From Candidatus Nanopusillus sp. (GTDB taxonomy: Archaea > Nanobdellota > Nanobdellia > Nanobdellales > Nanobdellaceae): 32,000 nt of DNA. Positions 3,601 to 27,461 of the stretch are shown piece after piece (the stretch's first letter is position 1; each line of letters begins with the position of its first letter). A program made the position numbers and the translations under genes. Location: positions 1 through 32,000 of the forward strand of contig JAPWTZ010000004.1 of the NCBI GenBank assembly GCA_028275775.1, written 5' to 3'. A model generated the notes under the pieces. The model did not search any database, was not told the origin of the DNA, and saw only the letters and a list, made by a program, of their open reading frames with translations.

Positions 3601-4437
3601 ATGTTTGCACATGCTCAGGGTGAATATGATAAATCAAAATGGATAATAGTAGGAATCCCATCTGAAATTGGTAGTTTATCTCATATAAAAAATTATATTG
3701 AGGGACCTGGATCAATTAGAGATGCATCATATAGAATATTTTCTCCAATATTTGGGGATATAAATATGGAAGAAATATATGATTATGGTGATATAGATTT
3801 AGAAGATATAAAAGATCTAGATAAATTATATGAAAAAATATATAATGAAATTAAAAAAATATATAGGAAAGATAAAAAATATATATTTTTGGGAGGAGAT
3901 CATTCAATAACATATCCAATATTAAAAATTGTTAAAGAAAATTGGGAAGATTTTTATTTATTATATTTTGATGCACATCCAGATATTCATCCAGATCCTT
4001 ATCCAAATTATCAAAGTTTTATTTATCATTTAATAAAAGAAAATTATATCGAACCTGAAAAAATTATTTTTGTTGGTATATCTAATCTATCATTTGAAGA
4101 AAAGAATATAATAAAAGAATGGGGGATAAAATATTATGATCCTTTATATATTTGGGATAATATAAAAGAAATATCGAGAGAAATATCAAATATATTAGAA
4201 AATAAAAATGTATATATTTCAATTGATATAGATGTATTTGATACAGGATGTGGACATTGGTTGGAAGGTATTGGAATTAGACCATATCATTATTTTAAGA
4301 TTATAAAGGAATTAAGGAATGTTAATTTAATTGGTTTTGATTTAGTAGAATTATTTTCAAATGAAGTATGTGATAATTTAGCTGCAAAAATTGTTATTGA
4401 ATCAATAGCAATTTTTAATAAATTTATGCAATCTTAA
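3601..4437 (+). CDS. speB: Ureohydrolase family protein, probable agmatinase
   Basis: Arginase-family metal-binding motifs are present: GGDHSITYP, FDAHPDIH, SIDIDVFD, GFDLVE. The segment after DIDVFD (TGCGHWLEG) departs from the usual DPAFAPG. Confidence 0.8.
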   Translation: MFAHAQGEYDKSKWIIVGIPSEIGSLSHIKNYIEGPGSIRDASYRIFSPIFGDINMEEIYDYGDIDLEDIKDLDKLYEKIYNEIKKIYRKDKKYIFLGGDHSITYPILKIVKENWEDFYLLYFDAHPDIHPDPYPNYQSFIYHLIKENYIEPEKIIFVGISNLSFEEKNIIKEWGIKYYDPLYIWDNIKEISREISNILENKNVYISIDIDVFDTGCGHWLEGIGIRPYHYFKIIKELRNVNLIGFDLVELFSNEVCDNLAAKIVIESIAIFNKFMQS

Positions 4438-5071
4438 AATATGTTTGATTAATTCTTTCTAAATATACTGTTACAAATTGATAAAATGTAATATTATTTA
4501 TTGAATAGCATGGTATATAATTGCATATAATATTTCCATTTGTATTTTCTGTACATGTAATATTTCCAGATAAATTTGTTGGAAATAGAAATACAAATGT
4601 TTGATTTGAAGTACTTTCGTTACTCAAACAAAAATAATATAAAAAATAGTAAAAATCTGAATAATAATTTTTACATATGGTTAATTTAATATAATCTAAT
4701 GAATAAGCTATAGAAATTGGATATACATATGTATTGCAATTTCCATTAAAATTTATTATTCCAAAACTATAATTATTTATTTCTGCTCTAAATGCATAAG
4801 GAAATATTGTACAATTTGGAAGTTCATTATAATATGTTTGGTTAAACTGTTCTATTTTTTCTAATGTTGTAAAATATACTGGATAATTTGGATATCCTAA
4901 ACAATTTGGAGAAAATAAATCATATATTATATCCTGTTCATATGAAAAAGATGTTTGTTCTTTATAATTTGTTAAATTTATATTAGAAAATATAGCTAAT
5001 AAAATTATCATTCCAACTAAAAATAATACAATTAATATTGTTATAAATACTATAGATAATTGTTCCTTCAT
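4424..5071 (-). CDS. N-terminally anchored, Cys-rich extracellular protein; last gene of the surface cluster
   Basis: 215 aa. N-terminus is MKEQ plus a hydrophobic helix (LSIVFITILIVLFLVGMIILLAIF). The rest is Asn/Tyr/Cys-rich with N-x-S/T sequons. It lies 7 nt downstream of the preceding cluster gene. Confidence 0.65.
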   Translation of the reverse strand: MKEQLSIVFITILIVLFLVGMIILLAIFSNINLTNYKEQTSFSYEQDIIYDLFSPNCLGYPNYPVYFTTLEKIEQFNQTYYNELPNCTIFPYAFRAEINNYSFGIINFNGNCNTYVYPISIAYSLDYIKLTICKNYYSDFYYFLYYFCLSNESTSNQTFVFLFPTNLSGNITCTENTNGNIICNYIPCYSINNITFYQFVTVYLERINQTYFKIA

Positions 5072-5078
5072 TTATTTT

Positions 5079-6398
5079 TTATCTAATATGTATGTTTTTT
5101 CCACCTCCTCCACCTCCACCGCCAGATCCACCCCCACCATTTTGTCCACATGAAGATTGACCAGATGGTTGCGGTACACATTGATCTGGGAAGGGTATAG
5201 TTTGTGGACATGTTGGATTATTTGGACATGCACCAGGTAAACATACAGGACATGGAGCAGAACCAATTATGCAAATATAGCATTCAATTGGTATTGAATA
5301 ATAATATGGAAATGTATATGTTATTTCACAATCTTGTTGATTTGTATTTACATTACCACAACCGTTAAGGGGTGTACATGAATATTGTTGACTTTCTAAT
5401 GTACAACTTTTAGATATTACTTGATTGTTTGTTAAATTATATGTTTCAGTACATTTATATATGCAATTTAGATAATATTGATTTGTTACATTTTCATAAA
5501 AAACTATAGAAGTAATTATTATTGTTTGTGGATATGTATTGCCATTATAATATACATTATATTGGTTATCAGAGCATCTTAATATTACCCTGCATGCAAT
5601 TTCCCAAGGATATAAACATGCTTTACATAAAGGAATATCTATACATTGATATGGAATTATTGTTTCATTACATTCAATATAAGGATTATTTGAAAATTGC
5701 TCAAAGGCTTGCACACAATTATTAGTTGTAACATGATTATATATTTCATTATAACAATCTTGGAAAGAACATTCTGAAAATTCTCCACTTTGAGAAAATT
5801 GATATGCTAAATTGTATAAATAAAATGCAGGATTGTTTGTTATATTCGATGTAGTTGCATATGGAATTATTGAACCAGAAGAAGGACCTGTAATATTTAT
5901 ATATAATCCTTGAACATAAATTGGAAAATTATAATTATATTCTCCAGAAGTTATATTACTGCAATCTCCAATAATTCCTGCTTGATAATTATTTGAAAAA
6001 TTGAAAGATATATTATAAGGATAGTAATATTTATATGTAGTTAAATATTGATCCCCATAAGTTAATAAAGTTTCATATCCAGAAGATAATAAATTATTAT
6101 AATATTGAAGCGCATTTTGACATGGTTGAGGTAATATACATCCTGGAGGAAAAGAAGCCCATTCCTCTTTTCCCCATCCATTTGTTCCAGCTATATAGGA
6201 TTCTGAATAACCTGTTTGTGCTAATAATGTTTGTAAATATCCTAAAAAATAATTTGATAATGTAGATAAAGAGGTAAATCTATTAAAAACAATATTTTGA
6301 TTGTAATTATATGTTAATGCATAAAAAGATAGAAGGATTATTAATATTGCAATTGTTAAAAATAAAACTACATAAATAACTTCTACCTGATTTTTCAT
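5079..6398 (-). CDS. N-terminally anchored, highly Cys-rich extracellular protein with a Gly-rich C-terminal tail
   Basis: 439 aa. N-terminus is MKNQ plus a hydrophobic helix. My hand count gives about 26 Cys, concentrated in the C-terminal half (CPVCLPGACPNNPTCPQ...). The tail is GQNGGGGSGGGGGGGGKNIHIR (nt 5100-5138). 4-nt overlap with the upstream gene. Confidence 0.75.
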   Translation of the reverse strand: MKNQVEVIYVVLFLTIAILIILLSFYALTYNYNQNIVFNRFTSLSTLSNYFLGYLQTLLAQTGYSESYIAGTNGWGKEEWASFPPGCILPQPCQNALQYYNNLLSSGYETLLTYGDQYLTTYKYYYPYNISFNFSNNYQAGIIGDCSNITSGEYNYNFPIYVQGLYINITGPSSGSIIPYATTSNITNNPAFYLYNLAYQFSQSGEFSECSFQDCYNEIYNHVTTNNCVQAFEQFSNNPYIECNETIIPYQCIDIPLCKACLYPWEIACRVILRCSDNQYNVYYNGNTYPQTIIITSIVFYENVTNQYYLNCIYKCTETYNLTNNQVISKSCTLESQQYSCTPLNGCGNVNTNQQDCEITYTFPYYYSIPIECYICIIGSAPCPVCLPGACPNNPTCPQTIPFPDQCVPQPSGQSSCGQNGGGGSGGGGGGGGKNIHIR

Positions 6399-7606
6399 AT
6401 TTTTAATTTAACATGTAGATATATAAATGTTAATATAAGAATAGGTGTTACTAGTCCATGTATAATTCCAAGTGCTATTAATATATTTGGTATAGATATT
6501 AAATGTATACTACTTGGTCCTCCAAATAATACTGATTCGAGGAATTCTCCAGTTATATTTTGTAATAAGATTAAAATACCAATGGAAATACCTAAAGCTT
6601 TTGTTATTACCTTTTTGCTGTTTCTAAATATTTTATAATGTATACCCATAAAGAAAAATAATAAAGCAATTAAATATCTAGTATGTAATGCTGCAGAAGT
6701 AAAATCTGTATATAATAGATATAGTTCTCCAAAAAATATTATTAAGACCATTGTTATAAGCAAAAAATAGTTTGTTGGTATATTATATTTTAAATTTCTA
6801 TAAACTAAAATATAAATAATGATTTCATATATTGATAAAAGTATTAAGGATTCATATATATATAAATAATATTTTCCAATTAAACTACTTATAACTAAGT
6901 TTCTATATATTAATAATTGATTTAATGAAATAAAGATTTGGATTATTATAATAGAAAATATTAATAGAAAAATGTATTTTTTATATTTATAAATTTCAGA
7001 AATAATTCTAAATATTTTTGTTTTTGATAATAATATTTCATTTCCATTAAAGTACATAACTAAGAATAAGAAAATTGCAAAAACAATAAATAATAAGGTA
7101 TATATTATTTCAAAGGTATAAAGATGTAAATATGAGTAATTAATGAGCAAAGATATTATATAGTTCATTTTTACATCAAGATCTGTAGTTGCAGAATTAT
7201 AAATAAGTTCTAGGAAAAATTGTATTATAAATAATATTATTGAGATTATATAAAATATTGATGATTTCTTTGAAATATATAAATTGTTTTCAAATAGATA
7301 ATATCCCATAGAAAATGCTATAAAATAAAATATCCAATAATTTACTATATAAGTAAATATTGATGGAAATGGAAAAGGTAAAGGCAAATTGGTGTAAATT
7401 CCAAAGATTCCAATTGGTATATATAATGGAAATATTAATTTATATATTAAAGATGTATTCTTTGAATTTTTTAATATAAAAGATAATAAGAACAAATATA
7501 CTGTACCGAAAATAATTATATTAATATTAAAGTTGCTAATATAAGTAAAAAGTAAAAACAATATTAAATATATAAAAAATAAAATTTTATCTTCTTTTTT
7601 TACCAT
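6395..7606 (-). CDS. Polytopic integral membrane protein (about 10-12 TM), unknown family
   Basis: 403 aa, almost entirely hydrophobic segments separated by short polar loops. No GxGD (prepilin peptidase), WWDYG (AglB) or Walker motifs seen. It overlaps both neighbours (7 nt and 4 nt). Confidence 0.7.
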   Translation of the reverse strand: MVKKEDKILFFIYLILFLLFTYISNFNINIIIFGTVYLFLLSFILKNSKNTSLIYKLIFPLYIPIGIFGIYTNLPLPFPFPSIFTYIVNYWIFYFIAFSMGYYLFENNLYISKKSSIFYIISIILFIIQFFLELIYNSATTDLDVKMNYIISLLINYSYLHLYTFEIIYTLLFIVFAIFLFLVMYFNGNEILLSKTKIFRIISEIYKYKKYIFLLIFSIIIIQIFISLNQLLIYRNLVISSLIGKYYLYIYESLILLSIYEIIIYILVYRNLKYNIPTNYFLLITMVLIIFFGELYLLYTDFTSAALHTRYLIALLFFFMGIHYKIFRNSKKVITKALGISIGILILLQNITGEFLESVLFGGPSSIHLISIPNILIALGIIHGLVTPILILTFIYLHVKLKI

Positions 7607-9222
7607 ACTGTTAATTCAGCAACTAGATACCCGCCCAGGAATGGTATACCCATTGGTAAATAAATATAAGAAACATATATATTTGTATTTGGAGGTATTG
7701 GATATCCCAAACTTATAGTTTCTCCACTACCTTCATACATATATGCATTTAGTTCTTCCACATTCCCTTTATCTGTAATACAATATGCTCTTGCCATTGC
7801 AACACCATTTCCTCCAGGATGAGGATCATAATATACTGCGGAAATTATAAATTGAGATGTATTTTGAGCTCTATCATCTATTACCCATTTAGTAATATTA
7901 AATCTATAAATTCCTTCTGCATTTGAATTTTGATTAAATAAATAAACTAAAGGGCATTCTTTTCCAACAATAATTCCATTTACATTTTGTACACTATCGA
8001 ATACACCAGTTGGACAATCTATTGTTTCTCCATTTAAATTATATTCACATAAAGGATCTGCTGCTAAAAATACATAATCTGGTTCTCCACTTTTATTTAA
8101 AAAAGAAATATACAATCTTACTACTTCATGCCATGGATAATCTATAAATACTTGTTGACAATTTGGAGGTATATTTACTATGCCTCTATAAAATGATCCA
8201 ACAATTAATTCCTGACCTCCACATTGCTGAGAAGGACCTGAATAGCTTGTACCGAATTCTTCTTGACATATCTTATTTAAATATTGTTGTGGGATTATAA
8301 ACTCTGCTAATCTATTTATATTGGTAGCAGTTTTATATACTGGAGGTCCATAATAATAGTAAGGAATACTTGTTAAATATTGAAAACCTGCTACTGGAGT
8401 TCCAATTCCTACCCATCCAGAGAAGAATTGTGGTAATGAAAAAGTTGGTTGTGGAGTTATTGAATAACTAAAGGTTTCATAATTTGGGAATAAATTCCAT
8501 TCACCTTGTGGGCAATATACAGAAGCGTTTGTAAAATTATAACTTGGAAATATTTTTGTTAATGGTGTACACAAGCCAGTTTGTACAGCTAGAGATTGAG
8601 TCATTCCATTATATAATGTTGGTAATCCCCACAAACTTATTGATTGAGACTGATGAAATGGCGCTGTTGCATTTACCCATCCTGCTCCATATAATGTTTG
8701 AGTTACTGGTATATTAATATTTTCTGTATAATTATCTACAAAGAAATATGTATAATTCCATTCATACCATTGTGTACCATCTGGATCTGGAGGGGGATTC
8801 ATTGAGCAAGGATCCCAATTTCCAATATTACCACCTACTATAAACATTTGAACAACCCATCCAGTTACTGGTGGGATAAAATATATAGTTAAGTTCCATC
8901 TATTTCCATATATACTATCAAAATAATTTATTAGATCTTCTGATATATTTGTACATATATTTTGATTTATACAATATGTATCATTTCCAGAAGATGAAAA
9001 ATAGGATAATAAAAATGCATAGGATAAATTAACTTTATGATCATAAATATAAGGTAATAGATCAATGCTATTTTGAATTGTTAATGTATATTGATTTTCT
9101 ACATTATATGTTTGTGTTATTTTAGAACTAGAACTGGTTGATAATAAATAAACCAAAATTATTAATAAAATTATTATTGAAATAATAATAACAAATGCTA
9201 ATGTATTAATCTGATTTTTCAT
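7600..9222 (-). CDS. N-terminally anchored large extracellular protein, unknown family
   Basis: 540 aa. N-terminus is MKNQ plus a hydrophobic helix (INTLAFVIIISIIILLIILVYLL). The ectodomain is rich in Tyr/Trp/Pro/Gly/Cys with many sequons. 4-nt overlap with the upstream gene. Confidence 0.75.
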   Translation of the reverse strand: MKNQINTLAFVIIISIIILLIILVYLLSTSSSSKITQTYNVENQYTLTIQNSIDLLPYIYDHKVNLSYAFLLSYFSSSGNDTYCINQNICTNISEDLINYFDSIYGNRWNLTIYFIPPVTGWVVQMFIVGGNIGNWDPCSMNPPPDPDGTQWYEWNYTYFFVDNYTENINIPVTQTLYGAGWVNATAPFHQSQSISLWGLPTLYNGMTQSLAVQTGLCTPLTKIFPSYNFTNASVYCPQGEWNLFPNYETFSYSITPQPTFSLPQFFSGWVGIGTPVAGFQYLTSIPYYYYGPPVYKTATNINRLAEFIIPQQYLNKICQEEFGTSYSGPSQQCGGQELIVGSFYRGIVNIPPNCQQVFIDYPWHEVVRLYISFLNKSGEPDYVFLAADPLCEYNLNGETIDCPTGVFDSVQNVNGIIVGKECPLVYLFNQNSNAEGIYRFNITKWVIDDRAQNTSQFIISAVYYDPHPGGNGVAMARAYCITDKGNVEELNAYMYEGSGETISLGYPIPPNTNIYVSYIYLPMGIPFLGGYLVAELTVW

Positions 9223-10043
9223 TTTAGATAATATAAAAGAATAACTAGGCCTATTATTATAATTACTATTACTATTGCTACTGGTAAAATTAAGTTAACA
9301 TTATTACTTTTATTACTTATATTTGGTTGTGGATAAATTAATTGTTGGGTATTATTTGTTTGATTTACTTGAGTCTGATTTATGCATTCAAATACTCCTG
9401 TACATGATATATATATAATATTTGGTGGTGGACATTGCTGTAAAAATTCTTGATATAATTGATTTAATGAATAATTATATGGACATCTAAACCAATCTCC
9501 TTCAAATGATAAGTTTTCTGGACAATATCCACATTGATATTCTTTTTGATATGCAGATAAAATAGTTTGATAAGAAGCATTACCTGTCAAATAAGATTGG
9601 GGTATATATGGTGGATTAAAACATGGATAAACCTGATTTGAACATGGTTGATAATACCATGGAGTATTTGAGCAATTTAATAAACTATTACAATATACTC
9701 TTGGAAGTATAATTAAATCTTCATATGCTGATGGAGGAATTAATGCATATGGACTAACCAATGTTCCATTTGGATATTCACAATAACTACTATTTACATA
9801 TATTAATCCATAATGGGCACAAAAAGAATATTGTGGAGGTACTTCGTTTTCATAATATTGTATAGCATCAAAATATGTACCATTTACAATACAATAAGAA
9901 CCTGTGCTGTTTGTATAATATGTTCCTCCACCATATTCACAATAAACTGCTAATGGATTTATCATGGAATGTATATTATAAAGTAAAGATATAAAAATAA
10001 TTATAAATAATATTAATATTTTTTTATTGTGCGAGAGTAACAT
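9219..10043 (-). CDS. Secreted Cys-rich protein with N-terminal signal sequence and C-terminal TM anchor; possible DUF333-like N-terminal module
   Basis: 274 aa. N-terminal hydrophobic signal (KKILILFIIIFISLLYNIHS). INPLAVYCEYGGGTYYTNSTGSYCIVNGTYFDAIQYY resembles the DUF333 pattern NPAxxYCxxxGG...C...G....W/Y. C-terminal anchor is LILPVAIVIVIIIIGLVILLYYLK. Confidence 0.65.
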   Translation of the reverse strand: MLLSHNKKILILFIIIFISLLYNIHSMINPLAVYCEYGGGTYYTNSTGSYCIVNGTYFDAIQYYENEVPPQYSFCAHYGLIYVNSSYCEYPNGTLVSPYALIPPSAYEDLIILPRVYCNSLLNCSNTPWYYQPCSNQVYPCFNPPYIPQSYLTGNASYQTILSAYQKEYQCGYCPENLSFEGDWFRCPYNYSLNQLYQEFLQQCPPPNIIYISCTGVFECINQTQVNQTNNTQQLIYPQPNISNKSNNVNLILPVAIVIVIIIIGLVILLYYLK

Positions 10044-11610
10044 TTTGGATTGCTACAACTACATAAGGAAATGATAAGCCATAAGGAGATTGATCAAATG
10101 GTACGTATACATATCCATCTTGCATCCAATAAACACCTCCACACGACCATTCTGATGATAAAGAAAATTCTTGCTCTAGTTCCTGATTGCAAAGCTGATA
10201 ATTAAAATAATATTCGCTGCATGCAGTAAGAGGGCATATAGAACTATAACATATATAGCTTACACCAATTTCACCATTTTGAGCAACAAGTATGCATCCA
10301 GATCTCTCCCCCCATTGGTTTTCAAATATCCAACATTTAGGAGTTCCATACATTTCTTGACATAGTTGAGAATTTATGGTATAGCCAACTAATAGCATGA
10401 CATGTCCCGAAGTTACATATTCTTCAGGATATATATTTGGATTAGATCCACCTGTCCCTCCCATCAATCCAGCAACTACTAATGGTCCATAACATAATAA
10501 ATCTTGGATTATTTGTTGATCGGATAAAGGTCCATTTTGTGAAAGAAAGATAACATCTTTTGGATAATACAATGGAGAGCTAGGTCCATTATAATTAAAA
10601 TTACATACATCACCCGGATAGCTATCATAGTTCTGATATTCTTCTTGTGGACAATGATTTCCTAAAGTAGATTCATAATAGCTCCATCCAGGATCGGGTG
10701 GTATACCGTATTGAGATGTATAATATATGCCATAATATAAACCAGATGCTGTGGGAATACCATTTTCATTAAAAATAGTCTCACTACCACGACAACCGCT
10801 ATTGTACTTGCAATAACTTGGAGCATTTGGATAACCATTATTACATTCTATTGCTAGATATGCTGGAGATAATTGTAATCCTTCATTTGGTTCGTTATTT
10901 CTTATCATATATACTGAAGCAATTCCATTTGAACTAGCAAAAGCCCAACAATCTCCGCAATCTCCCTGATCCCCTATTGGAGGTATATAGCTATTTCCAT
11001 TTACATCACCCCAGAAAAAACTTGCCTGTCCAGTATATTTAACTAGACATTGAGCATTTGGATTAATATTATTATTGTTATTTCCTTGATTATTTCCTCC
11101 ATTATTATTACTACTTCCCCCATTGTTTTGATTATTATTGTTTTGATTGTTTTCTGGAGTTATATATATAAGAGTTCCATTTGGTAAATATTCATTTAAT
11201 ATTGTAATTGAATTTTGAAGGTTTGTTGTAATAAAAACAGTATTATTTGTACTAACAAGATATATATAATTGTTTGGATACAGAAAACTTACATTTTGAT
11301 TATTATTATATAATGTTACATTCTTGTAAAAATTAATTGTATAATTGTTATTATTATATTGTATTATTAATTCAGTACCATTTGCAAATAATATAACTCC
11401 ATTTGGTATATTAACTTTTACATAAGTAGTGCCTTGAATACTATTTATTGTATTCTCTAAATTTTGTAAATTATTAATAAAATTTTCAAATATTAAATTT
11501 TCTTGTTGTTTTTTAATATTCATAGAATATTGATAATATATTATAAAAGCTAAAGATATAATTACCAATATTATTGCTACTGAAAGCAAATTTAATTGAT
11601 ATCTTTTCAT
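10024..11610 (-). CDS. Membrane-anchored papain-like (C1 family) cysteine peptidase with N-terminal beta-rich domain and an Asn/Gly low-complexity linker
   Basis: N-terminal anchor MKRYQLNLLSVAIILVIISLAFIIYY. Linker NNQNNNNQNNGGSSNNNGGNNQGNNNNNIN (nt ~11056-11154). Papain catalytic motifs are present in order: DQGDCGDCWAFASS (catalytic Cys codon 10948-10950), GHVMLLVGY (His), ENQWGERSG (Asn-x-Trp-Gly). Confidence 0.85.
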   Translation of the reverse strand: MKRYQLNLLSVAIILVIISLAFIIYYQYSMNIKKQQENLIFENFINNLQNLENTINSIQGTTYVKVNIPNGVILFANGTELIIQYNNNNYTINFYKNVTLYNNNQNVSFLYPNNYIYLVSTNNTVFITTNLQNSITILNEYLPNGTLIYITPENNQNNNNQNNGGSSNNNGGNNQGNNNNNINPNAQCLVKYTGQASFFWGDVNGNSYIPPIGDQGDCGDCWAFASSNGIASVYMIRNNEPNEGLQLSPAYLAIECNNGYPNAPSYCKYNSGCRGSETIFNENGIPTASGLYYGIYYTSQYGIPPDPGWSYYESTLGNHCPQEEYQNYDSYPGDVCNFNYNGPSSPLYYPKDVIFLSQNGPLSDQQIIQDLLCYGPLVVAGLMGGTGGSNPNIYPEEYVTSGHVMLLVGYTINSQLCQEMYGTPKCWIFENQWGERSGCILVAQNGEIGVSYICYSSICPLTACSEYYFNYQLCNQELEQEFSLSSEWSCGGVYWMQDGYVYVPFDQSPYGLSFPYVVVAIQNVTLAQ

Positions 11611-11646
11611 TATGAGTTAATAATATTTATAAAATTTTAAAAATTT

Positions 11647-12087
11647 TTAACTTGGATTTTCTATATAAATTGTTACTTCTGTTGGAGAAGTTTTTTCAAC
11701 AAGTAGTGGTATTTTTTCATTTGGATTTCCATATGATAATTCATAAAATAATCCAGAAGTATAATATTGAATCATACTATTTGTTGTATTTATTATTACA
11801 TTGCATGGCAATGTATAATTGTAGTATTCATCATATATATAACAACTTAATAAATTATTATTTGCATAAATATAATTTAAATACTTGTTTATTTCAATAT
11901 TAATATAAATTTCTGTTCCAGTATTTGAATAACATACTCTTTCAATTGTTGTATACAAATTCTGGCAAGATGATATATCTTGATATAATAATTGAGTTTG
12001 ATTATTTATACTTGAAAATTTAAAATATAAATATAAAGACAATCCAAAAGCAATAATTGTTACAATTATCCAAAACCACTTTTCCAT
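11647..12087 (-). CDS. Small N-terminally anchored pilin-like protein
   Basis: 146 aa. The N-terminal hydrophobic helix MEKWFWIIVTIIAFGLSLYLYF is followed by a Cys-containing beta-rich domain. It lies 2 nt downstream of the previous small ORF. Confidence 0.6.
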   Translation of the reverse strand: MEKWFWIIVTIIAFGLSLYLYFKFSSINNQTQLLYQDISSCQNLYTTIERVCYSNTGTEIYINIEINKYLNYIYANNNLLSCYIYDEYYNYTLPCNVIINTTNSMIQYYTSGLFYELSYGNPNEKIPLLVEKTSPTEVTIYIENPS

Positions 12088-12089
12088 TT

Positions 12090-12503
12090 TTATCCTTGAA
12101 CATTAATATAAACATAATTTCCTGCCGAATATATTAATATATATTCTCCAGGATTTATATTATAATTACAATTTTGCATTACTACATTTGGATCTATACT
12201 ACTTACATTATTTATTAAATCCTGACATGTAAATGGTTCTCCTTGATAGTTAATTAAATAGCAAAGACCCTGAGCTTTTTTATAATAACATGCCACTACA
12301 TCCATTGCAACATCTTGTATCGAATTTACATTTGTTTCTACTACAGTTTGTGTACTATTATATTTAGGCATTATACTACTAATGTAAGAAGTTATATTTC
12401 CTCTTAATAAAAATATTATTCCTAAAATTACTACTGTAACAATTATTCCTATAATTATTAAAAATGTATAATTAACTGGAAGTTCTTGAGACTTTATTGC
12501 CAT
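12090..12503 (-). CDS. Small N-terminally anchored pilin-like protein (paralog set)
   Basis: 137 aa. MAIKSQ then the hydrophobic helix (YTFLIIIGIIVTVVILGIIFLL). C-terminal strand motif EYILIYSAGNYVYI is shared with the two upstream ORFs. Confidence 0.6.
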   Translation of the reverse strand: MAIKSQELPVNYTFLIIIGIIVTVVILGIIFLLRGNITSYISSIMPKYNSTQTVVETNVNSIQDVAMDVVACYYKKAQGLCYLINYQGEPFTCQDLINNVSSIDPNVVMQNCNYNINPGEYILIYSAGNYVYINVQG

Positions 12504-12973
12504 ATTACAATATAACTATTGTTGTATATTATAAATATACTATTGTATGGATAAATATTTCCATCACTATTATTTAAATGAAATATAATATTATTTGGAT
12601 TAAATGTGGTATAATTTTGTATATATTGAATTAATATTGATGAATTAAGAACAATATTCTCATCTATATAAACATCATAACATATATTAAATAATTTATT
12701 TGTATTTACATTATTATTGTAGCAATTTAATATTAATCCTGTTATATCTGAATAAATTGTATCATTACTTTCATTTGTATACATAACATTTATTGCTGAA
12801 GGATAATATTTTTCACATGATGGAGAAAAACCACCTTGTGATATTAATGTTTGACAATAATATGCTTGAGAATTGCCAAAAAACTTTGTATAAATAATAT
12901 CTAATATAACTGCAACAGATATTATTGCTATTATAATAATAAATACAGTATCTATTGCTATATCATTCTTCAT
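12494..12973 (-). CDS. Small N-terminally anchored pilin-like protein (paralog set)
   Basis: 159 aa. MKND then the hydrophobic helix (IAIDTVFIIIIAIISVAVILDII). C-terminal motif SIFIIYNNSYIVIW. 4-nt overlap upstream and 10-nt overlap downstream. Confidence 0.6.
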   Translation of the reverse strand: MKNDIAIDTVFIIIIAIISVAVILDIIYTKFFGNSQAYYCQTLISQGGFSPSCEKYYPSAINVMYTNESNDTIYSDITGLILNCYNNNVNTNKLFNICYDVYIDENIVLNSSILIQYIQNYTTFNPNNIIFHLNNSDGNIYPYNSIFIIYNNSYIVIWQ

Positions 12974-13254
12974 ATATAATTAATACTTCCGTTATAAATA
13001 TATATAATTCTATAGCCTGCAGGTATTGTTATTCCATTTATTGTACAATTTTCATTAAGAAATACTTTAATATTAATTATTTCCTGAAAACTTTTATTAT
13101 ATAGATTTTCTAACTGTTGGCAATTAATTGTTTGTATATTATTTCCACTCAAATTATTTTTTATATTATAAATATAATAAAAAGAAAATAAACTAGCAGC
13201 TATAATTAATATAAAAGTTATTATAATCCAATATATTGATTGTTGCAATTTCAT
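12970..13254 (-). CDS. Small N-terminally anchored pilin-like protein (paralog set)
   Basis: 94 aa. MKLQQS then the hydrophobic helix (IYWIIITFILIIAASLFSFYYI). C-terminal motif YRIIYIYNGSINYI. 4-nt overlap with the platform-protein gene. Confidence 0.55.
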   Translation of the reverse strand: MKLQQSIYWIIITFILIIAASLFSFYYIYNIKNNLSGNNIQTINCQQLENLYNKSFQEIINIKVFLNENCTINGITIPAGYRIIYIYNGSINYI

Positions 13255-15221
13255 AATTGTATATTTGTTGGTAAATATGGGCCAAATACTGTATATACTA
13301 TCAATATTCCTATTATTGAAAATATTACATAAAATATTGTTCCAAATAATAAATTTCTACCTATATAATATGATGTCATTGTATTATCAAATCCATATTT
13401 TATTCCAGCACTCATATATGAAGTTATTATTACATATTCTATAAAAAATATACCAATTATTGCTTCAAAAAATGTTGGTGGTATTAAATTATATAGATTA
13501 AATGTATTTACAATGAAATTGAATAAGTTTGTTCCTCCACCAAGGCCAAAAGATTGGTCTATTAATTGAAAGAAATATGCAAGTGCAAAAAGCATTGAAA
13601 CTACTCCATTATTAAAGACCGTAACCATTCCAGAAATTAATGGTACTAGATCTCTTGATGTCATATCTATTAATCCAATTATTTCATTTAATATTTTTCT
13701 TACACTATATCTTATGTTATTTACATTTTCTAAGTTTATTGATATATTATATGCAATCTTTGATAAAACTTCAGGACCTTTTGATGCAGAAGTAACTAAC
13801 AATTGCATAGATTCTCTTACTAATTTTGATGGATATAAATTTAATGAGCCAATTTTTGGATCAAATATAGAAGTACCTAAATCATAACCTCTTCTTAAAT
13901 TATATAATGTTGTTTTTAGGAAATTTTCCATAACTCCAGATGATTTTATTATTTTATAATTATAATATGTTTTTTCAATTACTATTTCAAATGGATATCC
14001 ATCTTCCAATAATGATGCAAATTCATATACAACAATTGGAAACTCATTTTCTATTTCTTCAATTTGATATATTTTTTTAACTTTTTGGAAAGATGTTAAA
14101 TAATAATAAGATCCTATACCTAAACCCAATCCTAAAGGTAATGTTAAAGTTAAAACAGAATATATTAATGCTCTATCCTGATAAACTATATTTAAATAAT
14201 CACTCAAAAATCCTTGTGGAATAAATGTAATCCTTATAGCTAGAGAAACTAAATGATATATTCCCAAAACTGCAATTGATCCTAATATTATTGAAATTAT
14301 TATTGCTGGAACTTCCTTATTTCCAATTTTAAATTTTCCAGGTTTTGGTAAATCTCTTGCTAAGGATAAATCTGGAACAGAAAATGCAAATGGATTTTTT
14401 GATAAGAAATTTTGAATTATTAAAAATGTAATAACTGGTAAAATTATTATATATGAAAATGCTATGAAATAGAAACTTACTGTATTTAATAAAAATACGG
14501 ATATTATTGGTAACATCATCAAACTAACTATTGGCATCATTACTAAGAAAGATACTATAACTGTTGCTGGTTCTTTTAAAGCATCTACATATAACTGGGA
14601 TTTTTCTAGGGATTTCTTTAATACCCATCCCAAAATTCTATCTAATAATTTATTTATATCATCAATAGATGTTTTATATTTAATGTTTACAATATGTGTC
14701 ATTGCATATACAAAATCTGGACTTAAATAAAACCATCTTCTCTGATAATATTCTAATGCAGATTCTATATCTTTAAATTTATTTGTTTCTAAGTTATATA
14801 ATAATGATCTAAAGTCTGTTGCAATATAACCTCTCATATAATATGCTACATATTTTATTCCATTCTCTAAATTAGGATTTCTTTTTAGATATAATGATAA
14901 ATATAGAATTATCCATACAATTTCTGATGTTACCTGAATTCTAACTACTTGTGTATAGAATATTGGATAATATGCGAAATAGAATGATAAAATTAATAAA
15001 GATATTAACAAAGAAAAAGCAAATTGAAAGCTTACAAAACTTAAAATAAAATATATGATTATAGAAAATAATATAAGAGTTATTACGGAAGAGAATATAT
15101 TATCTGGATTTGTATTTAGTCTATTTAACCATAAATGAAATGCATATTTTTTATATATTGGACCAGGAGCTCTTAGTTTTATTAAATTAAAATTATTATA
15201 AAAATATTCAAAAAAACTCAT
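13251..15221 (-). CDS. Polytopic membrane protein resembling the FlaJ/TadC/PilC (T2SSF-type) platform of archaeal type IV filament systems
   Basis: 656 aa with a duplicated architecture. Two soluble helical regions of about 120-150 aa (approx. residues 100-225 and 385-520, e.g. EIENEFPIVVYEFASLLEDGYPFEIVIEKT...) are each flanked by clusters of TM helices, about 9-10 TM in total. This is the layout of archaeal FlaJ/TadC. It sits between pilin-like genes. The call rests on architecture and context, not a strict motif. Confidence 0.55.
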   Translation of the reverse strand: MSFFEYFYNNFNLIKLRAPGPIYKKYAFHLWLNRLNTNPDNIFSSVITLILFSIIIYFILSFVSFQFAFSLLISLLILSFYFAYYPIFYTQVVRIQVTSEIVWIILYLSLYLKRNPNLENGIKYVAYYMRGYIATDFRSLLYNLETNKFKDIESALEYYQRRWFYLSPDFVYAMTHIVNIKYKTSIDDINKLLDRILGWVLKKSLEKSQLYVDALKEPATVIVSFLVMMPIVSLMMLPIISVFLLNTVSFYFIAFSYIIILPVITFLIIQNFLSKNPFAFSVPDLSLARDLPKPGKFKIGNKEVPAIIISIILGSIAVLGIYHLVSLAIRITFIPQGFLSDYLNIVYQDRALIYSVLTLTLPLGLGLGIGSYYYLTSFQKVKKIYQIEEIENEFPIVVYEFASLLEDGYPFEIVIEKTYYNYKIIKSSGVMENFLKTTLYNLRRGYDLGTSIFDPKIGSLNLYPSKLVRESMQLLVTSASKGPEVLSKIAYNISINLENVNNIRYSVRKILNEIIGLIDMTSRDLVPLISGMVTVFNNGVVSMLFALAYFFQLIDQSFGLGGGTNLFNFIVNTFNLYNLIPPTFFEAIIGIFFIEYVIITSYMSAGIKYGFDNTMTSYYIGRNLLFGTIFYVIFSIIGILIVYTVFGPYLPTNIQL

Positions 15222-15225
15222 TACA

Positions 15226-15990
15226 TTAGCTTGTTGTGCTTGGTATATTATTTAACTGGGAATATGGTACTTGCAATAAGAATTGACATAATGGCATTCC
15301 ATTGGCATTATTATTTATACCCAATGCTGCGCAATTTCCAGTTACTGTTAATACTCCATTATTAACTATTAAATTCAAATTACATCCATCTGCAGTATTA
15401 TAATAGTTAATAATCTTTAATAATGCACCAAATACCTGGTTTGTAATCCATGTTGGTAATTGTGCAGAACATTGTACTGGACCTGGATTTAATATTGAAG
15501 ATGGAGAAGAAATTTGAATATTTGCTTGTCCAGATGCTACATTAAATGATGTAGTGGAAGAATAATTTCCGAATACATAACTTGTTGCTTGTTCTGGGCT
15601 ATAATATAAATTATCAATATAATTTTGACATTCTAGATACATACAATCTAGAGGTGTTATTGTATATCCTTCATATTGACATTGACTAGAAGAACCTCCA
15701 TATAATTGTAATAATACACTGCATGGGACAGCATTTGAACAAATATAATATCCCGGACTTACTTGTACAAGTCCATTTCCTATATCTTCATACTTTGTAC
15801 AAAATGTTGTTGGTGAACTTGAACAATAACTTGAACAATCTGAAACTGCCTGTTGTATTTGTGTATTTGATATCGTACTAATCTTTGATGATTGCTGCTG
15901 GAATAACTTAATTACAACAACTGCTACTACTAACATTATTATTATTACAAATATTAACTGTACAGCCATATCTATACCCCTCCTTTTCAT
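15226..15990 (-). CDS. Type IV pilin-like protein with class III (prepilin) signal peptide; first gene of the cluster
   Basis: MKRRG/IDMAVQLIFVIIIMLVVAVVVIKLF has a short basic leader ending in Gly followed by a hydrophobic helix of about 22 aa, as in archaeal prepilins. The mature part is Ser/Thr/Cys-rich (12 Cys by hand count). Confidence 0.65.
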   Translation of the reverse strand: MKRRGIDMAVQLIFVIIIMLVVAVVVIKLFQQQSSKISTISNTQIQQAVSDCSSYCSSSPTTFCTKYEDIGNGLVQVSPGYYICSNAVPCSVLLQLYGGSSSQCQYEGYTITPLDCMYLECQNYIDNLYYSPEQATSYVFGNYSSTTSFNVASGQANIQISSPSSILNPGPVQCSAQLPTWITNQVFGALLKIINYYNTADGCNLNLIVNNGVLTVTGNCAALGINNNANGMPLCQFLLQVPYSQLNNIPSTTS

Positions 15991-16013: not shown

Positions 16014-16021
16014 TTTATAAA
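16014..16021 (-). promoter_or_regulatory. Candidate TATA box for the surface-cluster operon
   Basis: TTTATAAA lies 23 nt upstream of the ATG at 15990, in the 36-nt gap after the DUF371 gene. The spacing fits a leaderless or short-leader archaeal transcript. TATA-like strings are frequent in this AT-rich DNA, so specificity is low. Confidence 0.3.
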
Positions 16022-16026
16022 TATTT

Positions 16027-16434
16027 TTAGTAGTATATAATAAATTCCATATCCCTTTCATTCCTTAATCTTTCTATCAATCTTCTATCAATATCAATAG
16101 CACTCTTATTTGAATTTATTGCCAAAGTTCTATCATCAATATAATTGCTTTTTCTTATAACAATACTTCTATCACTTGTTAATAATAATTTTTTTGAACC
16201 ATATGCAATTATATCATCTATTAAATCATCAACTTTAATTACAATCTTTATTTTTCCTTCATTTAATAGATGATCTTTGAGGTCTTCTGGTAAATCTTTT
16301 ACAGAGTAATTTGCACTTATACCTATTATGCAATCCCCTCTTTCAGTTAAATAATTGTCCTTAGTAATTTCTAAAGTACTTCTATGTGTTGCTTTTATTA
16401 ATTTATTTCCTTTAGCTTTTATTACTAATCTCAT
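16027..16434 (-). CDS. DUF371 (COG2090) family protein
   Basis: IKATHRSTLEITKDNYLTERGDCIIGISAN matches the DUF371 signature (ATH-x-T-x-E-x-T...T-x-RGDCI(I/V)G). Confidence 0.75.
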   Translation of the reverse strand: MRLVIKAKGNKLIKATHRSTLEITKDNYLTERGDCIIGISANYSVKDLPEDLKDHLLNEGKIKIVIKVDDLIDDIIAYGSKKLLLTSDRSIVIRKSNYIDDRTLAINSNKSAIDIDRRLIERLRNERDMEFIIYY

Positions 16435-17263
16435 TTAAGTAATTTAATATTTCTCTTGTAATATTTTTATTTAAATATTTATCAAATCCTTCATATTGGA
16501 ATATATGATGTAAATCTATTAAATAATATTGATTATCTTTTAATAGTAGATCAAATGCGAATATTTGTAAGTCACATTTTTCCATAATTTTATATCCAAT
16601 ATCTATTATTTCTTCATCCAATTTATATGGTCTTCCATATGCACCTCTACTAATATTTGCCTTAAAACTATTTTTATTAATTCTTTCCATTGCACCAATT
16701 GGTTTTCCTATAAAAATTACTCTTATATCTCTTTCATAAGGTATATATTTTTGAAATATTAAATGTTTTATGTTTATTCTTTTTTCTAATAAATATTTTT
16801 CTAAAAAATCATACAGTTCCTTTTCATTATCTATTTTATATACAAATTCCCCCCTATGAATAAATTGATGCTTTATTACCATTGGAAAGCCTATTTTATT
16901 TATTACGTATTCTATATTATCTATTGAATATATTTTTGTGAATTCTGGAATTTCTATATATTTATTAAGAATGCTATAAAATAATGTTTTTGATATTATA
17001 GATTCTTTAACATGTATTTTATTTATTACTTCTTTTCCATTTTGTTTAAGATATTTTGCTAAAAAATGTATATCTGATAAAAAATTTGATCCGACAAAAA
17101 AGTAATATAAATCATAATTCAATATTTTCCCATTATATGGAAATATATTTTCTTTTTCTATATCAACTATTTCAATGTTATTATAATTTTTTATTTCTTC
17201 CTTTAACTTTATTATCCTATAATCTTGTAAATAAGGTTTTGTTAATATAGCTACTCTACCCAT
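16412..17263 (-). CDS. ATP-grasp enzyme, RimK/LysX-like ligase
   Basis: 283 aa. GFPMVIKHQFIHRGEFVY, IFQKYIPYERDIRVIFIG, FKANISRGA and FAFDLL...YYLIDLH follow the RimK-type ATP-grasp motif order. 23-nt overlap with the DUF371 gene. Confidence 0.75.
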   Translation of the reverse strand: MGRVAILTKPYLQDYRIIKLKEEIKNYNNIEIVDIEKENIFPYNGKILNYDLYYFFVGSNFLSDIHFLAKYLKQNGKEVINKIHVKESIISKTLFYSILNKYIEIPEFTKIYSIDNIEYVINKIGFPMVIKHQFIHRGEFVYKIDNEKELYDFLEKYLLEKRINIKHLIFQKYIPYERDIRVIFIGKPIGAMERINKNSFKANISRGAYGRPYKLDEEIIDIGYKIMEKCDLQIFAFDLLLKDNQYYLIDLHHIFQYEGFDKYLNKNITREILNYLNEISNKS

Positions 17264-26975: not shown

Positions 26976-27461
26976 ATGAACCCGCGGAGTCTAGTACCAA
27001 AAAAAGTTTTCTTTACTTCTGGTATAGGTATATCAGATGATCCATTATTAAGTTTTGAATATGCATTGAGAGATGCAAAAATAGAGAAGTTTAATTTAGT
27101 TCCAGTATCAAGTATAGCACCGCCAAATATAAAAATTATAGACATAGATGAAGGATTAAAATATTTAAAGGCAGGTCAGATTGTATTTTGTGTTTTATCT
27201 AGATTTACTTCAAATGAAGAAGGTAAAGAAATATTTTCATCAGTTGGAGTAGCATTACCTAAGGATAAAAAATATAATGGATATTTTACAGAATACCATG
27301 GATATTATACTGGAAAAGAGGAAGGATATGCAAAAAATATGGCAAAAAATATGTTAAAGTCTATGTATAATATAGAAATAGATAAGGAATTTGAAATATT
27401 TAAAAAAGCTACTGTAAAGGATTATACAACTGTTGTATCTGCTGCAGTTTTTATTTTATAA
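26976..27461 (+). CDS. pdaD: Pyruvoyl-dependent arginine decarboxylase
   Basis: 161 aa. VPKKVFFTSGIGISDDPLLSFEYALRDAKIEKFNLVPVSSIAPP matches PdaD, including the self-cleavage region around the SS dipeptide. Confidence 0.88.
   Translation: MNPRSLVPKKVFFTSGIGISDDPLLSFEYALRDAKIEKFNLVPVSSIAPPNIKIIDIDEGLKYLKAGQIVFCVLSRFTSNEEGKEIFSSVGVALPKDKKYNGYFTEYHGYYTGKEEGYAKNMAKNMLKSMYNIEIDKEFEIFKKATVKDYTTVVSAAVFIL

What the first reader, a model, noticed from the sequence alone, without database searches (positions are those of the whole stretch)
4424..15990. A 12-gene, 11.6 kb minus-strand cluster of pilin-like, protease and Cys-rich surface proteins: candidate uncharacterised cell-surface / cell-contact apparatus
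Twelve consecutive minus-strand ORFs run from 15990 to 4424. Their start/stop overlaps are 4-20 nt and gaps are at most 36 nt, so one or two operons are likely.

Gene order:
1. Prepilin-like protein with a class III signal (254 aa).
2. FlaJ/TadC/PilC-like platform protein (656 aa).
3. Four small N-anchored pilin-like proteins (94, 159, 137 and 146 aa).
4. Membrane-anchored papain-like protease (528 aa).
5. Signal-peptide protein with a C-terminal anchor (274 aa).
6. 540-aa N-anchored ectoprotein.
7. 403-aa polytopic membrane protein.
8. 439-aa hyper-Cys-rich ectoprotein.
9. 215-aa N-anchored protein.

Only the protease and, by architecture, the platform protein resemble known families; the large ectodomains match nothing I recognise. 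No Walker-A secretion ATPase and no GxGD prepilin peptidase is encoded in the cluster.

The surrounding genes suggest a reduced-genome archaeon. In that setting, a dedicated block of about one third of this window devoted to exported proteins is a plausible attachment, adhesion or host-interaction machine. It combines a type IV filament core with adhesins and a protease.
Basis: partly seen in the sequence, partly recalled or inferred. Interest (0 to 1): 0.85.

Follow-up and report, generated by a model that had tools for sequence, protein, structure and literature searches.

The report
Nanoarchaeal pilus-like surface gene cluster
A conserved 12-gene block in tiny host-dependent hot-spring archaea encodes a hidden pilus-assembly platform, one classic prepilin, eight more surface proteins with pilin-like anchors (one carrying a papain-type protease) and two accessory proteins, and it is a plausible but unproven part of how these cells attach to their hosts.

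Summary
Twelve tightly packed minus-strand genes (15990-4424) are real: all are under purifying selection and are conserved in order in at least seven Nanopusillaceae/Nanobdellales genomes, including cultured Nanobdella aerobiophila MJ1 and YN1.

- **Platform:** the 656-aa protein is a cryptic TadC/FlaJ-type platform. It has no direct Pfam hit, but full-length homologs carry T2SSF domains and sit beside T2SSE ATPases.
- **Prepilin:** gene 1 has a canonical class III signal, [KR]-R-[G/S/A]|hydrophobic.
- **Pilin-like anchors:** eight further proteins have a short charged N-terminus and one hydrophobic helix. Six share a cluster-specific M-[KR]-x-Q start.
- **Protease:** the papain-type domain keeps its catalytic residues. 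It sits on different pilin-like modules in different species and is missing in one.
- **Surface character:** ectodomains are Cys-rich (3.7% vs 0.55%), sequon-rich, fast-evolving and lineage-restricted.
- **Missing parts:** no ATPase or prepilin peptidase lies within 10 kb; related genomes encode ATPases elsewhere.

Best reading: a lineage-specific, ATPase-less variant of the archaeal type IV filament loci already inferred for DPANN. It probably displays adhesive and proteolytic modules for host contact. Filament formation and function are inferred, and the pilin fold test was inconclusive. A link to the uncharacterised attachment organelle is attractive but unproven.

The parts
16014..16021 (-). 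TATA-like box (TTTATAAA) at -31..-24 from the gene-1 ATG; candidate promoter for a leaderless transcript
   Evidence: A similar TATA-like element (TTTATAAA/TTATAAAT/TTTATAAG/TTTTATATA) sits 21-22 nt before the ATG in all six genomes compared, although the flanking sequence has diverged. Function is inferred.
15226..15990 (-). g1, 254 aa: prepilin with a canonical class III signal (MKRRG|IDMAVQL...), 12 conserved Cys; candidate major filament subunit
   Evidence: Position -1 varies only among G, S and A, and -2/-3 are K/R, in 7 orthologs. JGI names one ortholog 'pseudopilin PulG'. The AF2 model has a helix at 3-58 plus an alpha/beta head, pLDDT 73. It has the highest dN/dS in the cluster, 0.40, and 39 clusters at 90% identity in metagenomes. 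No PDB fold or sequence match.
13251..15221 (-). g2, 656 aa: cryptic TadC/FlaJ/PilC-type platform protein (two T2SSF-like halves)
   Evidence: No direct Pfam hit. Full-length homologs at E 1e-29 to 1e-65; 6 of 16 family members hit PF00482. The C-terminal half is above the gathering cutoff in three homologs and the N-terminal half is subthreshold in two. Family profile hits the GspF cytoplasmic domain at E 0.012. Distant homologs lie directly downstream of T2SSE ATPases. AF2 pLDDT 85. dN/dS 0.087, like RNA polymerase. The N. aerobiophila ortholog is named 'type II secretion system protein'.
12970..13254 (-). g3, 94 aa: small pilin-like protein, MK-x-Q start, 2 conserved Cys
   Evidence: candidate minor pilin by inference
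12494..12973 (-). g4, 159 aa: small pilin-like protein (MKND|IAIDT...), 4 conserved Cys
   Evidence: N-terminus resembles g1 ([ILV]-[DE] after a short charged leader). Weak full-length hhalign similarity to g5 (75% probability).
12090..12503 (-). g5, 137 aa: small pilin-like protein, 4 conserved Cys
   Evidence: JGI names one ortholog 'UPF0333 family'; N-termini
11647..12087 (-). g6, 146 aa: small pilin-like module with no charged leader (MEKWFW...), 4 conserved Cys
   Evidence: The L005 ortholog starts MRNQVEKFLW. In YN1 this module is fused to the C1 protease domain.
11626..11643 (-). AT-rich TATA-like elements in the 36-nt gap upstream of g7; possible internal promoter
   Evidence: TTAAA(A/T)-type element at a similar distance in four genomes; weak evidence in an AT-rich genome
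11176..11610 (-). g7 N-terminal pilin-like module (residues 1 to about 145, MKRYQ start), followed by an N/G-rich linker
   Evidence: This module is a stand-alone 141-143-aa gene in YN1 and L009. hhalign similarity to g6 (55%) and to the g9 N-terminus (88%).
10024..11052 (-). g7 papain-family (C1A) cysteine protease domain (residues 187-528), predicted extracellular
   Evidence: PF00112, 53.6 bits against a cutoff of 20.7. Gln, Cys221, His403 and Asn431 are conserved in all five orthologs. Best PDB relatives are cathepsin K and falcipain-2 at E about 5e-6. No prodomain detected. Absent from L009.
9219..10043 (-). g8, 274 aa: Sec-type signal, DUF333-like N-domain, Cys-rich region (14 Cys, 13 sequons), C-terminal TM anchor
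   Evidence: 6 of 7 family members hit DUF333, best E 1.3e-4, below cutoff. An extra short paralog exists in YN1 and L009.
7600..9222 (-). g9, 540 aa: MKNQ-anchored glycoprotein ectodomain of unknown fold
   Evidence: Only 6 representatives among 1.84 billion proteins. No Pfam, NCBIfam or PDB match. 12 sequons. A distant relative lies in L015 next to a g11-like gene.
6395..7606 (-). g10, 403 aa: polytopic (about 8-10 TM) membrane protein with invariant HTR, GIH, GE..E, IHG and LH motifs and no Cys in this window's copy
   Evidence: No D/GxGD motif, so not an A24 peptidase. A paralog follows g12 in MJ1 and YN1. Function unknown.
5079..6398 (-). g11, 439 aa: MKNQ-anchored, 26-Cys ectoprotein with a Gly-rich tail
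   Evidence: 22-26 Cys in every ortholog, many in invariant columns. No known relatives. A g11-like protein with 26 Cys occurs in the distant L015 locus.
4424..5071 (-). g12, 215 aa: MKEQ-anchored ectoprotein, 8 conserved Cys, 10 sequons

Best explanation
This is a lineage-specific type IV filament (TFF/T4P-like) locus of Nanopusillaceae/Nanobdellales that has lost its own ATPase gene. Shown: g2 is a divergent TadC/FlaJ-type platform under strong purifying selection. Shown: g1 carries a canonical class III (prepilin) signal. Shown: eight more proteins (g3-g7, g9, g11, g12) have a very short charged N-terminus and a single hydrophobic helix, six of them with a cluster-specific M-[KR]-x-Q start, followed by Cys-rich, sequon-rich ectodomains. 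Shown: one ectodomain is an intact papain-family protease, which sits on different pilin-like modules in different species. Inferred: g1 is cut by the cell's class III signal peptidase and polymerised on g2. Polymerisation would be driven by a secretion ATPase encoded elsewhere; related genomes hold three COG0630 ATPases, one in a canonical ATPase-TadC pair. Inferred: g3-g6 act as minor, priming or tip pilins. Inferred: the modular proteins (protease g7, glycoproteins g9, g11, g12) are either built into the filament or held at its base, as in a short pseudopilus or bindosome. This would put adhesive and proteolytic modules on the cell surface for recognising the host archaeon and breaching its S-layer. 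g8 (Sec-dependent, C-terminally anchored) and g10 (polytopic) would be accessory envelope components.
For: T2SSF membership by transitive homology and two-domain layout. Distant homologs form ATPase-TadC-multi-pilin loci that include large Cys-rich proteins. g1 signal with -1 restricted to G/S/A in 7 genomes. Independent COG-based names 'pseudopilin PulG' and 'UPF0333'. M-[KR]-x-Q plus a hydrophobic helix occurs in 30 of 186 ORFs across eight loci, and all 30 lie inside the cluster. Cys 3.70% against 0.55% and sequons 2.44 against 0.53 per 100 aa. Catalytic residues are conserved and the protease swaps between pilin-like modules. Full synteny holds in MJ1, YN1 and four MAG/metagenome lineages. 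TadC dN/dS is 0.087 against 0.20-0.40 for most surface proteins (g6 0.12). A TATA-like element upstream of g1 is conserved in position. Literature: several COG0630 ATPases and a separate ATPase-TadC pair exist in a Nanopusillus-type genome (PMC6142677 supplement). DPANN TadC islands are read as divergent pilins (PMC6393860). 'System 2' TFF loci have non-SPIII pilin-like proteins, membrane proteins and large adhesin-like proteins.
Against: No secretion ATPase or A24 peptidase in the window or within 10 kb of the cluster in six genomes. g2 has no direct Pfam or NCBIfam hit, and Foldseek against PDB was uninformative. The g1 head matches no solved pilin by fold or profile. Small proteins hit no pilin Pfam family beyond a weak Flp1_like match in 2 of 29. 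In the M-[KR]-x-Q proteins the residue before Q is N, S, A, V, L or E, which does not fit the small-residue rule known for PibD/FlaK, so they may be uncleaved signal anchors. One species lacks the protease. I found no expression or localisation data for these genes.
Confidence: 0.6

Rival explanations
1. This is a surface-protein island with no filament. The N-terminal helices are ordinary uncleaved signal anchors. The proteins are membrane-tethered envelope glycoproteins (protease, binding proteins). The TadC-like protein is a relic or has been recruited for another membrane role.
For: Non-canonical residues at position -1 in the M-[KR]-x-Q group, and g6 has no leader at all. No ATPase or peptidase nearby. 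No pilin fold or family match. In the distant L015 locus the g6/g9/g11-like genes are not next to a g2-type TadC.
Against: g2 is as constrained as RNA polymerase (dN/dS 0.087) and keeps the conserved motifs of both cytoplasmic T2SSF-like halves, which argues for a working ATPase-binding platform. g1 has a textbook class III site with G/S/A at -1. g1 and g2 are adjacent in seven genomes.
Confidence: 0.22
2. This is a T2SS-like or bindosome-like pseudopilus. A short, non-protruding assembly built on g2 positions or releases the protease and glycoproteins in the pseudo-periplasm under the S-layer, rather than forming a long adhesive pilus.
For: Many different pilin-like proteins carry functional ectodomains, as with the class III signal sugar-binding proteins of the Sulfolobus bindosome (my own knowledge). 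The protease is tethered to a pilin-like module by a long low-complexity linker. JGI gives a 'pseudopilin PulG' label.
Against: There is no way to tell a pseudopilus from a pilus by sequence alone. High g1 microdiversity and the highest dN/dS fit an exposed major subunit better than a buried one.
Confidence: 0.15
3. The cluster encodes structural parts of the cone, portal and filament 'attachment organelle' seen by cryo-ET in N. aerobiophila, YN1 and YN4.
For: The complete cluster is present in MJ1 and YN1, which both build the organelle (PMC11104419 and PMC11420986). The organelle's proteins are explicitly unknown. Its filament or tube is 7-8 nm wide, which I judge compatible with a type IV filament (my own knowledge). 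A protease would help breach the host S-layer. Kato et al. screened only proteins with recognisable signal peptides.
Against: This rests purely on co-occurrence. Every core gene of these genomes co-occurs equally. The filament is described as running from symbiont cytoplasm into host cytoplasm, which is unlike a membrane-anchored pilus. One species lacks the protease. I did not retrieve transcript or protein abundances for these genes.
Confidence: 0.15

Closest known systems
Archaeal type IV filament 'system 2' / clade 2 adhesion-pilus loci (e.g. Haloferax volcanii PilB3C3 with PilA pilins), as classified by Makarova et al. 2016 and bioRxiv 2026.04.22.720090
   Same: A single large TadC-type platform gene, several pilins, pilin-like proteins without a canonical SPIII motif, membrane proteins and large adhesin-like proteins in one locus. 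The distant DPANN relatives of g2 (L006, L011) have a 759-772-aa ATPase with this layout.
   Different: No ATPase gene in or near the locus. Platform and pilins are too divergent for Pfam or NCBIfam. The locus contains a papain-family protease and hyper-Cys-rich proteins. Six proteins share a three-residue M-[KR]-x-Q leader.
DPANN 'dark-matter' type IV pili islands (Makarova, Wolf and Koonin 2019, PMC6393860, Fig. 2A)
   Same: Same logic and same kind of object: TadC plus unannotated signal-bearing proteins read as highly diverged pilins.
   Different: Those islands keep the ATPase. This cluster, its conservation across Nanobdellales, the pilin-tethered protease and the M-[KR]-x-Q motif are not described in any paper I could read.
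Sulfolobus bindosome (Bas) system and bacterial modular pilins (e.g. Streptococcus sanguinis PilB/PilC); from my own knowledge, not tested here
   Same: Functional ectodomains grafted onto a pilin-like N-terminal helix and handled by a TadC/ATPase machine.
   Different: The cargo here is a C1 protease and orphan Cys-rich glycoproteins, not sugar-binding or von Willebrand/lectin modules. Processing of the N-termini is unproven.
Papain family C1A cysteine proteases (cathepsin K/L, falcipain-2)
   Same: Pfam PF00112 above its cutoff. The Gln-Cys-His-Asn catalytic set is conserved.
   Different: No I29-type prodomain detected. There are large Cys-rich insertions and a C-terminal extension. The domain is fused by a low-complexity linker to a membrane-anchored pilin-like module.

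Membership tests
Type IV filament (TFF) machinery | Polytopic platform protein of the PilC/TadC/FlaJ family (two T2SSF domains) | tested here: met
   Indirect but consistent. g2 has no direct Pfam hit. Full-length homologs (E 1e-29 to 1e-65) carry PF00482 on the C-terminal half above the cutoff (36.6, 31.0 and 26.5 bits against 25.2) and on the N-terminal half below it (24.2 and 17.0 bits). The profile hits the GspF cytoplasmic domain at E 0.012. Fold confirmation failed because the libraries were unavailable.
Type IV filament (TFF) machinery | Dedicated secretion ATPase (T2SSE/VirB11/FlaI family) in the locus | tested here: not met
   No T2SSE Pfam hit in any window ORF. tblastn with two DPANN T2SSE ATPases finds nothing in the window or within 10 kb in six genomes. 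Three COG0630 ATPases are listed elsewhere in a Nanopusillus-type genome (PMC6142677 supplement).
Type IV filament (TFF) machinery | Subunit with a class III signal peptide ([KR]-[G/A/S] cleavage site before a hydrophobic helix) | tested here: met
   g1 reads M-[KRG]-[KR]-R-[G/S/A]|[IVL]-[DE]-M-A-[VI]-[QE]-L in seven orthologs. For the other eight proteins the site is non-canonical, so the result is inconclusive.
Type IV filament (TFF) machinery | Class III signal (prepilin) peptidase, family A24 | not testable with these tools
   None in the window. g10 and the 7-TM ORF at 25492-26307 lack the D/GxGD signature. Whole genomes could not be searched. Archaella are assembled by MJ1 and YN1. Because archaellin processing is required for assembly (my own knowledge), this implies such an activity exists. 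Makarova 2016 reported two nanoarchaea without a detectable A24 gene.
Type IV filament (TFF) machinery | Pilin fold: long N-terminal helix plus a globular, usually beta-rich head | tested here: inconclusive
   The g1 AF2 model (pLDDT 73) has a helix at 3-58 and a mixed alpha/beta head. No Foldseek hit at E below 1. No PDB profile hit. No pilin Pfam family.
Peptidase family C1 (papain-like) | Family HMM above the curated cutoff and the catalytic Gln/Cys/His/Asn present | tested here: met
   PF00112 E 4e-14, 53.6 bits against 20.7. QGDCGDCWAF, SGHVMLLVGY and FENQWG are conserved in five orthologs. PDB hits to cathepsin K and falcipain-2.
DUF333 (PF03891) | Family HMM above the gathering cutoff | tested here: not met
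   Best E 1.3e-4, and the window protein scores 12.5 bits against a cutoff of 25. However, 6 of 7 g8-family members give the same weak hit on the NPxAVYC..GG motif. This is a resemblance only.

The most novel reading that the evidence does not exclude
The cluster encodes the filament, and the tools that breach the host envelope, of the Nanobdellales 'attachment organelle', whose protein composition is currently unknown. In this reading an orphan TadC borrows an ATPase from another system and polymerises g1. The modular pilin-like proteins deliver a papain-type protease and Cys-rich glycoprotein adhesins to the host S-layer. The M-[KR]-x-Q proteins would be a new class of near-leaderless pilins, either processed before Gln by a non-canonical rule or used unprocessed.
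Probability: 0.15. Interest if true: 0.85.

Novelty: new variant of a known kind. Interest (0 to 1): 0.58.

Why it matters
Nanobdellales (N. aerobiophila, YN1, YN4, N. acidilobi) are the best-cultured model DPANN ectosymbionts. Three recent cryo-ET studies state that the proteins of their host-attachment organelle and of a second, roughly 15-nm appendage are unknown.

This cluster is present and syntenic in those same strains. It was missed by the annotation pipelines checked here (no direct T2SSF hit) and would escape signal-peptide-based screens. It offers a short, concrete candidate list: one prepilin, one platform, eight pilin-like proteins and one surface protease. These can be tested with existing co-cultures by proteomics, immunolabelling and protease assays on host S-layer.

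More generally, it shows a TFF locus running without its own ATPase and with enzymatic cargo grafted onto interchangeable pilin-like modules. If the link to host contact fails, it remains one more divergent archaeal pilus locus.

Tried and rejected
- **Direct family searches.** Pfam and NCBIfam on all 12 proteins identified only Peptidase_C1.
- **Fold and profile search, g1.** The AF2 model found no solved relative, and the PDB profile search found none.
- **Profiles of other families.** g8, g9 and g11 profiles against PDB gave nothing significant; the only hint was a pilin hit at E 0.84 on the g11 N-terminal helix.
- **Pilin Pfam families.** A scan of 29 small orthologs gave only Flp1_like in 2 of 29 at E 0.003.
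- **g10 as the missing prepilin peptidase or a sortase.** Rejected: no D/GxGD motif, and no Cys in four of five orthologs.
- **The 7-TM ORF at 25492-26307 as the peptidase.** Rejected.
- **Finding the partner ATPase.** A search with the L006 ATPase saturated with more than 4,000 DPANN hits and showed no Nanopusillaceae copy in the top 120. I fell back on Jarett et al.'s supplement.
- **Internal duplication in g2.** hhalign support was weak (E 0.004, probability 8%).
- **Accessory genes of the canonical DPANN loci.** Not found near the cluster.
- **Expression data.** The Kato et al. supplement is not held.

Full report
**Source and observation**

The window is a low-GC (about 25%) archaeal fragment. 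It carries a split rpoB, rpoA'/A'', ribosomal protein genes and an arginase-family gene. It is identical in the cluster region to a JGI hot-spring metagenome contig. Its closest genome match is Candidatus Nanopusillus sp. RHS.bin.5, with 96% TadC identity.

Two further co-directional genes, a RimK-like ATP-grasp gene and a DUF371 gene, lie immediately upstream. However, a TATA-like box (TTTATAAA, window 16014-16021) sits 24-31 nt upstream of the gene-1 ATG, and a similar element sits at the same distance in all six genomes compared. That suggests the cluster has its own promoter. A weaker AT-rich element precedes g7.

**Are they real genes?**

Yes. All 12 have orthologs in the same order, between RimK/DUF371 plus the RNA polymerase operon on one side and arginase/UDG on the other. 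The genomes are:
- Nanobdella aerobiophila MJ1 (L016);
- strain YN1 (L002/L010);
- a Nanopusillaceae MAG (L009);
- a 55%-identity lineage (L004/L005);
- Ca. Nanopusillus sp. RHS.bin.5 (L008);
- L012, where the contig ends after g9.

BLAST recovers every family. Against L008, dN/dS is 0.087 for g2 and 0.06-0.10 for RNA polymerase subunits. It is 0.40 for g1 and 0.12-0.30 for the rest. All 12 are therefore under purifying selection. Apart from g2 and g6, cluster proteins evolve two to six times faster than RNA polymerase, and g10 (polytopic) falls in the same fast range.

**The platform protein**

g2 (656 aa) has no Pfam or NCBIfam hit of its own. This probably explains why it is called 'hypothetical' in most records, and why it is not among the T2SS-F/FlaJ genes listed in the part of Jarett et al.'s table that I could read (the stored file is cut).

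Its family reaches full-length homologs at 24-29% identity in other DPANN. Six of the 16 members hit PF00482. The domain falls on the C-terminal half above the gathering cutoff in three homologs, and on the N-terminal half just below it in two. That is the two-domain PilC/TadC/FlaJ layout. The family profile also touches the GspF cytoplasmic domain at E 0.012.

In Aenigmarchaeota (L006) and Woesearchaeota (L011) the homolog lies directly downstream of a 759-772-aa T2SSE ATPase. It is followed by about ten proteins with K-[KR]-G|hydrophobic N-termini, including 330-460-aa Cys-rich ones.

**Pilin-like proteins**

g1 has a textbook class III site: M-[KR]-[KR]-R-[G/S/A]|[IVL]-[DE]-M-A-V-[QE]-L. 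Position -1 varies only among the three residues that archaeal prepilin peptidases accept (the acceptance rule is from my own knowledge of PibD/FlaK).

JGI's COG annotation independently calls one ortholog 'pseudopilin PulG' and a g5 ortholog 'UPF0333'. From memory, UPF0333 is the archaeal class III signal family; I did not check this here.

g3, g5, g7, g9, g11 and g12 begin M-[KR]-x-Q followed by a helix of roughly 20 hydrophobic residues. Among 186 ORFs of at least 80 aa in eight loci, 30 start this way, and all 30 are cluster members. The motif also recurs in a more distant lineage (L015: MRSQ, MKNQ).

A Gln at +1 is known for Methanococcus EppA-type pilins (my own knowledge). The preceding residue here (N, S, A, V, L or E) is not reliably small, so cleavage is uncertain. 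g6 lacks a leader altogether in most species.

hhalign links g4 to g5, g6 to the g7 N-module, and the N-terminal 70-90 residues of g7, g9 and g11, all weakly. The pilin fold itself is unproven. The g1 model is a 55-residue helix plus an alpha/beta head at pLDDT 73. It has no structural or profile match, and no pilin Pfam family is met.

**Cargo**

The g7 C1 domain scores 53.6 bits against a cutoff of 20.7. It keeps Gln, Cys221, His403 and Asn431 in all orthologs. It is a divergent C1A enzyme without a detectable prodomain.

Its carrier varies by species:
- In the window, L008, L012, L005 and MJ1 it follows the 'g7N' pilin-like module and a low-complexity linker.
- In YN1 it is fused to the g6 module, while g7N stands alone.
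- L009 has no C1 domain at all.

This shuffling argues that the pilin-like modules are interchangeable carriers.

g9 has only six representatives in 1.84 billion proteins. g11 keeps 22-26 Cys. g8 has a Sec-type signal, a consistent but subthreshold DUF333-like domain and a C-terminal anchor. g10 is polytopic with invariant His, Glu and Arg motifs and no peptidase or sortase signature.

Cluster ectoproteins carry 3.70% Cys and 2.44 sequons per 100 aa, against 0.55% and 0.53 elsewhere in the window. These are the hallmarks of disulfide-bonded, N-glycosylated surface proteins.

**What is missing**

No secretion ATPase or A24 peptidase lies in the window or within 10 kb in six genomes.

Jarett et al.'s supplement lists three COG0630 ATPases in a Nanopusillus-type genome. 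One is a 2244-bp gene adjacent to a 2010-bp T2SS-F gene, which is the canonical DPANN pair. g2 is therefore an additional, ATPase-less platform paralog that must borrow an ATPase if it is active.

MJ1 and YN1 assemble archaella. Because archaellin processing is required for assembly (my own knowledge), this implies a class III peptidase activity.

**Interpretation**

The best-supported reading is a lineage-specific, ATPase-less variant of an archaeal type IV filament locus. It would display adhesive and proteolytic modules for host contact (confidence about 0.6).

The kind is known:
- Makarova et al. 2019 read DPANN TadC islands as divergent pilins.
- The 2026 TFF survey describes 'system 2' loci with non-SPIII pilin-like proteins, membrane proteins and large adhesin-like proteins.
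- Jarett et al. 2018 linked T4P and fast-evolving surface proteins to nanoarchaeal symbiosis.

The following appear in none of the papers I could read: this cluster, its cryptic TadC, the M-[KR]-x-Q motif and the pilin-tethered protease. Kato et al. note that they screened only proteins with recognisable signal peptides.

**Link to the attachment organelle**

Cryo-ET of N. aerobiophila, YN1 and YN4 shows a cone-portal-filament attachment organelle with a 7-8 nm filament or tube, plus a second roughly 15-nm appendage. The components of both are explicitly unknown.

The cluster is intact in MJ1 and YN1, so it is a reasonable candidate. The evidence is co-occurrence only, and I give this reading about 0.15.

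**Verdict**

This is a new variant of a known kind, of moderate to high interest to DPANN and archaeal cell-surface specialists, mainly because it gives a testable candidate list.

Noticed in passing
window 25492-26307 (+): A 271-aa, roughly 7-TM protein with no Pfam match, wedged between the ribosomal protein S12 and S7 genes. It has no A24/GxGD signature.
   Followed up: partly
window 716-1372 (+): A 218-aa ORF (GTG start) with 6 Cys and 4 N-glycosylation sequons and no Pfam hit. It may be another surface protein outside the cluster.
   Followed up: no
L016 20640-21686 (N. aerobiophila MJ1); L002 21375-end (YN1): An extra 348/349-aa polytopic membrane gene follows g12 and resembles g10. It is absent from the window, where g12 overlaps the convergent arginase-family gene by 14 nt.
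   Followed up: partly
L009 13201-15920; L010 13201-16741: The middle of the cluster is rearranged between species. YN1 fuses the C1 protease to the g6 module, keeps g7N as a stand-alone 141-aa gene and adds a short g8 paralog. L009 has the same layout but no C1 domain at all.
   Followed up: yes
window 3601-4437 (+), 16027-17263 (-), 26976-27461 (+): Arginine/polyamine-type genes surround the cluster: an arginase-family gene, a RimK-like ATP-grasp gene plus DUF371 co-directional with the cluster, and a pyruvoyl-dependent arginine decarboxylase. RimK/DUF371 adjacency to g1 is conserved in all the Nanopusillaceae loci.
   Followed up: no
L006 4821-7712 and L011 4753-7437: The canonical DPANN ATPase-TadC loci are preceded by three paralogous membrane proteins of about 170-198 aa, a roughly 237-aa protein and a roughly 130-aa coiled-coil protein. 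The set is conserved between Aenigmarchaeota and Woesearchaeota and has no counterpart near the window cluster.
   Followed up: partly
one search hit list (homologs of the L006 ATPase): Several DPANN T2SSE ATPases of this family are about 1250 aa long and carry PF14528/PF14890 (LAGLIDADG/intein-type) domains, so these secretion ATPases appear to contain inteins.
   Followed up: no
(P0055): A 148-aa fragment 87% identical to g1 is attributed to 'Candidatus Nanopusillus massiliensis' on a 607-kb contig. Such close identity to a hot-spring sequence is notable if that organism comes from a different habitat.
   Followed up: no
window 27462-28289 (-): A 275-aa tyrosine recombinase (Phage_integrase family, E 3e-43) sits among housekeeping genes. 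It is probably a XerA-type chromosomal recombinase rather than a mobile-element marker. No tRNA genes were found in the window.
   Followed up: no
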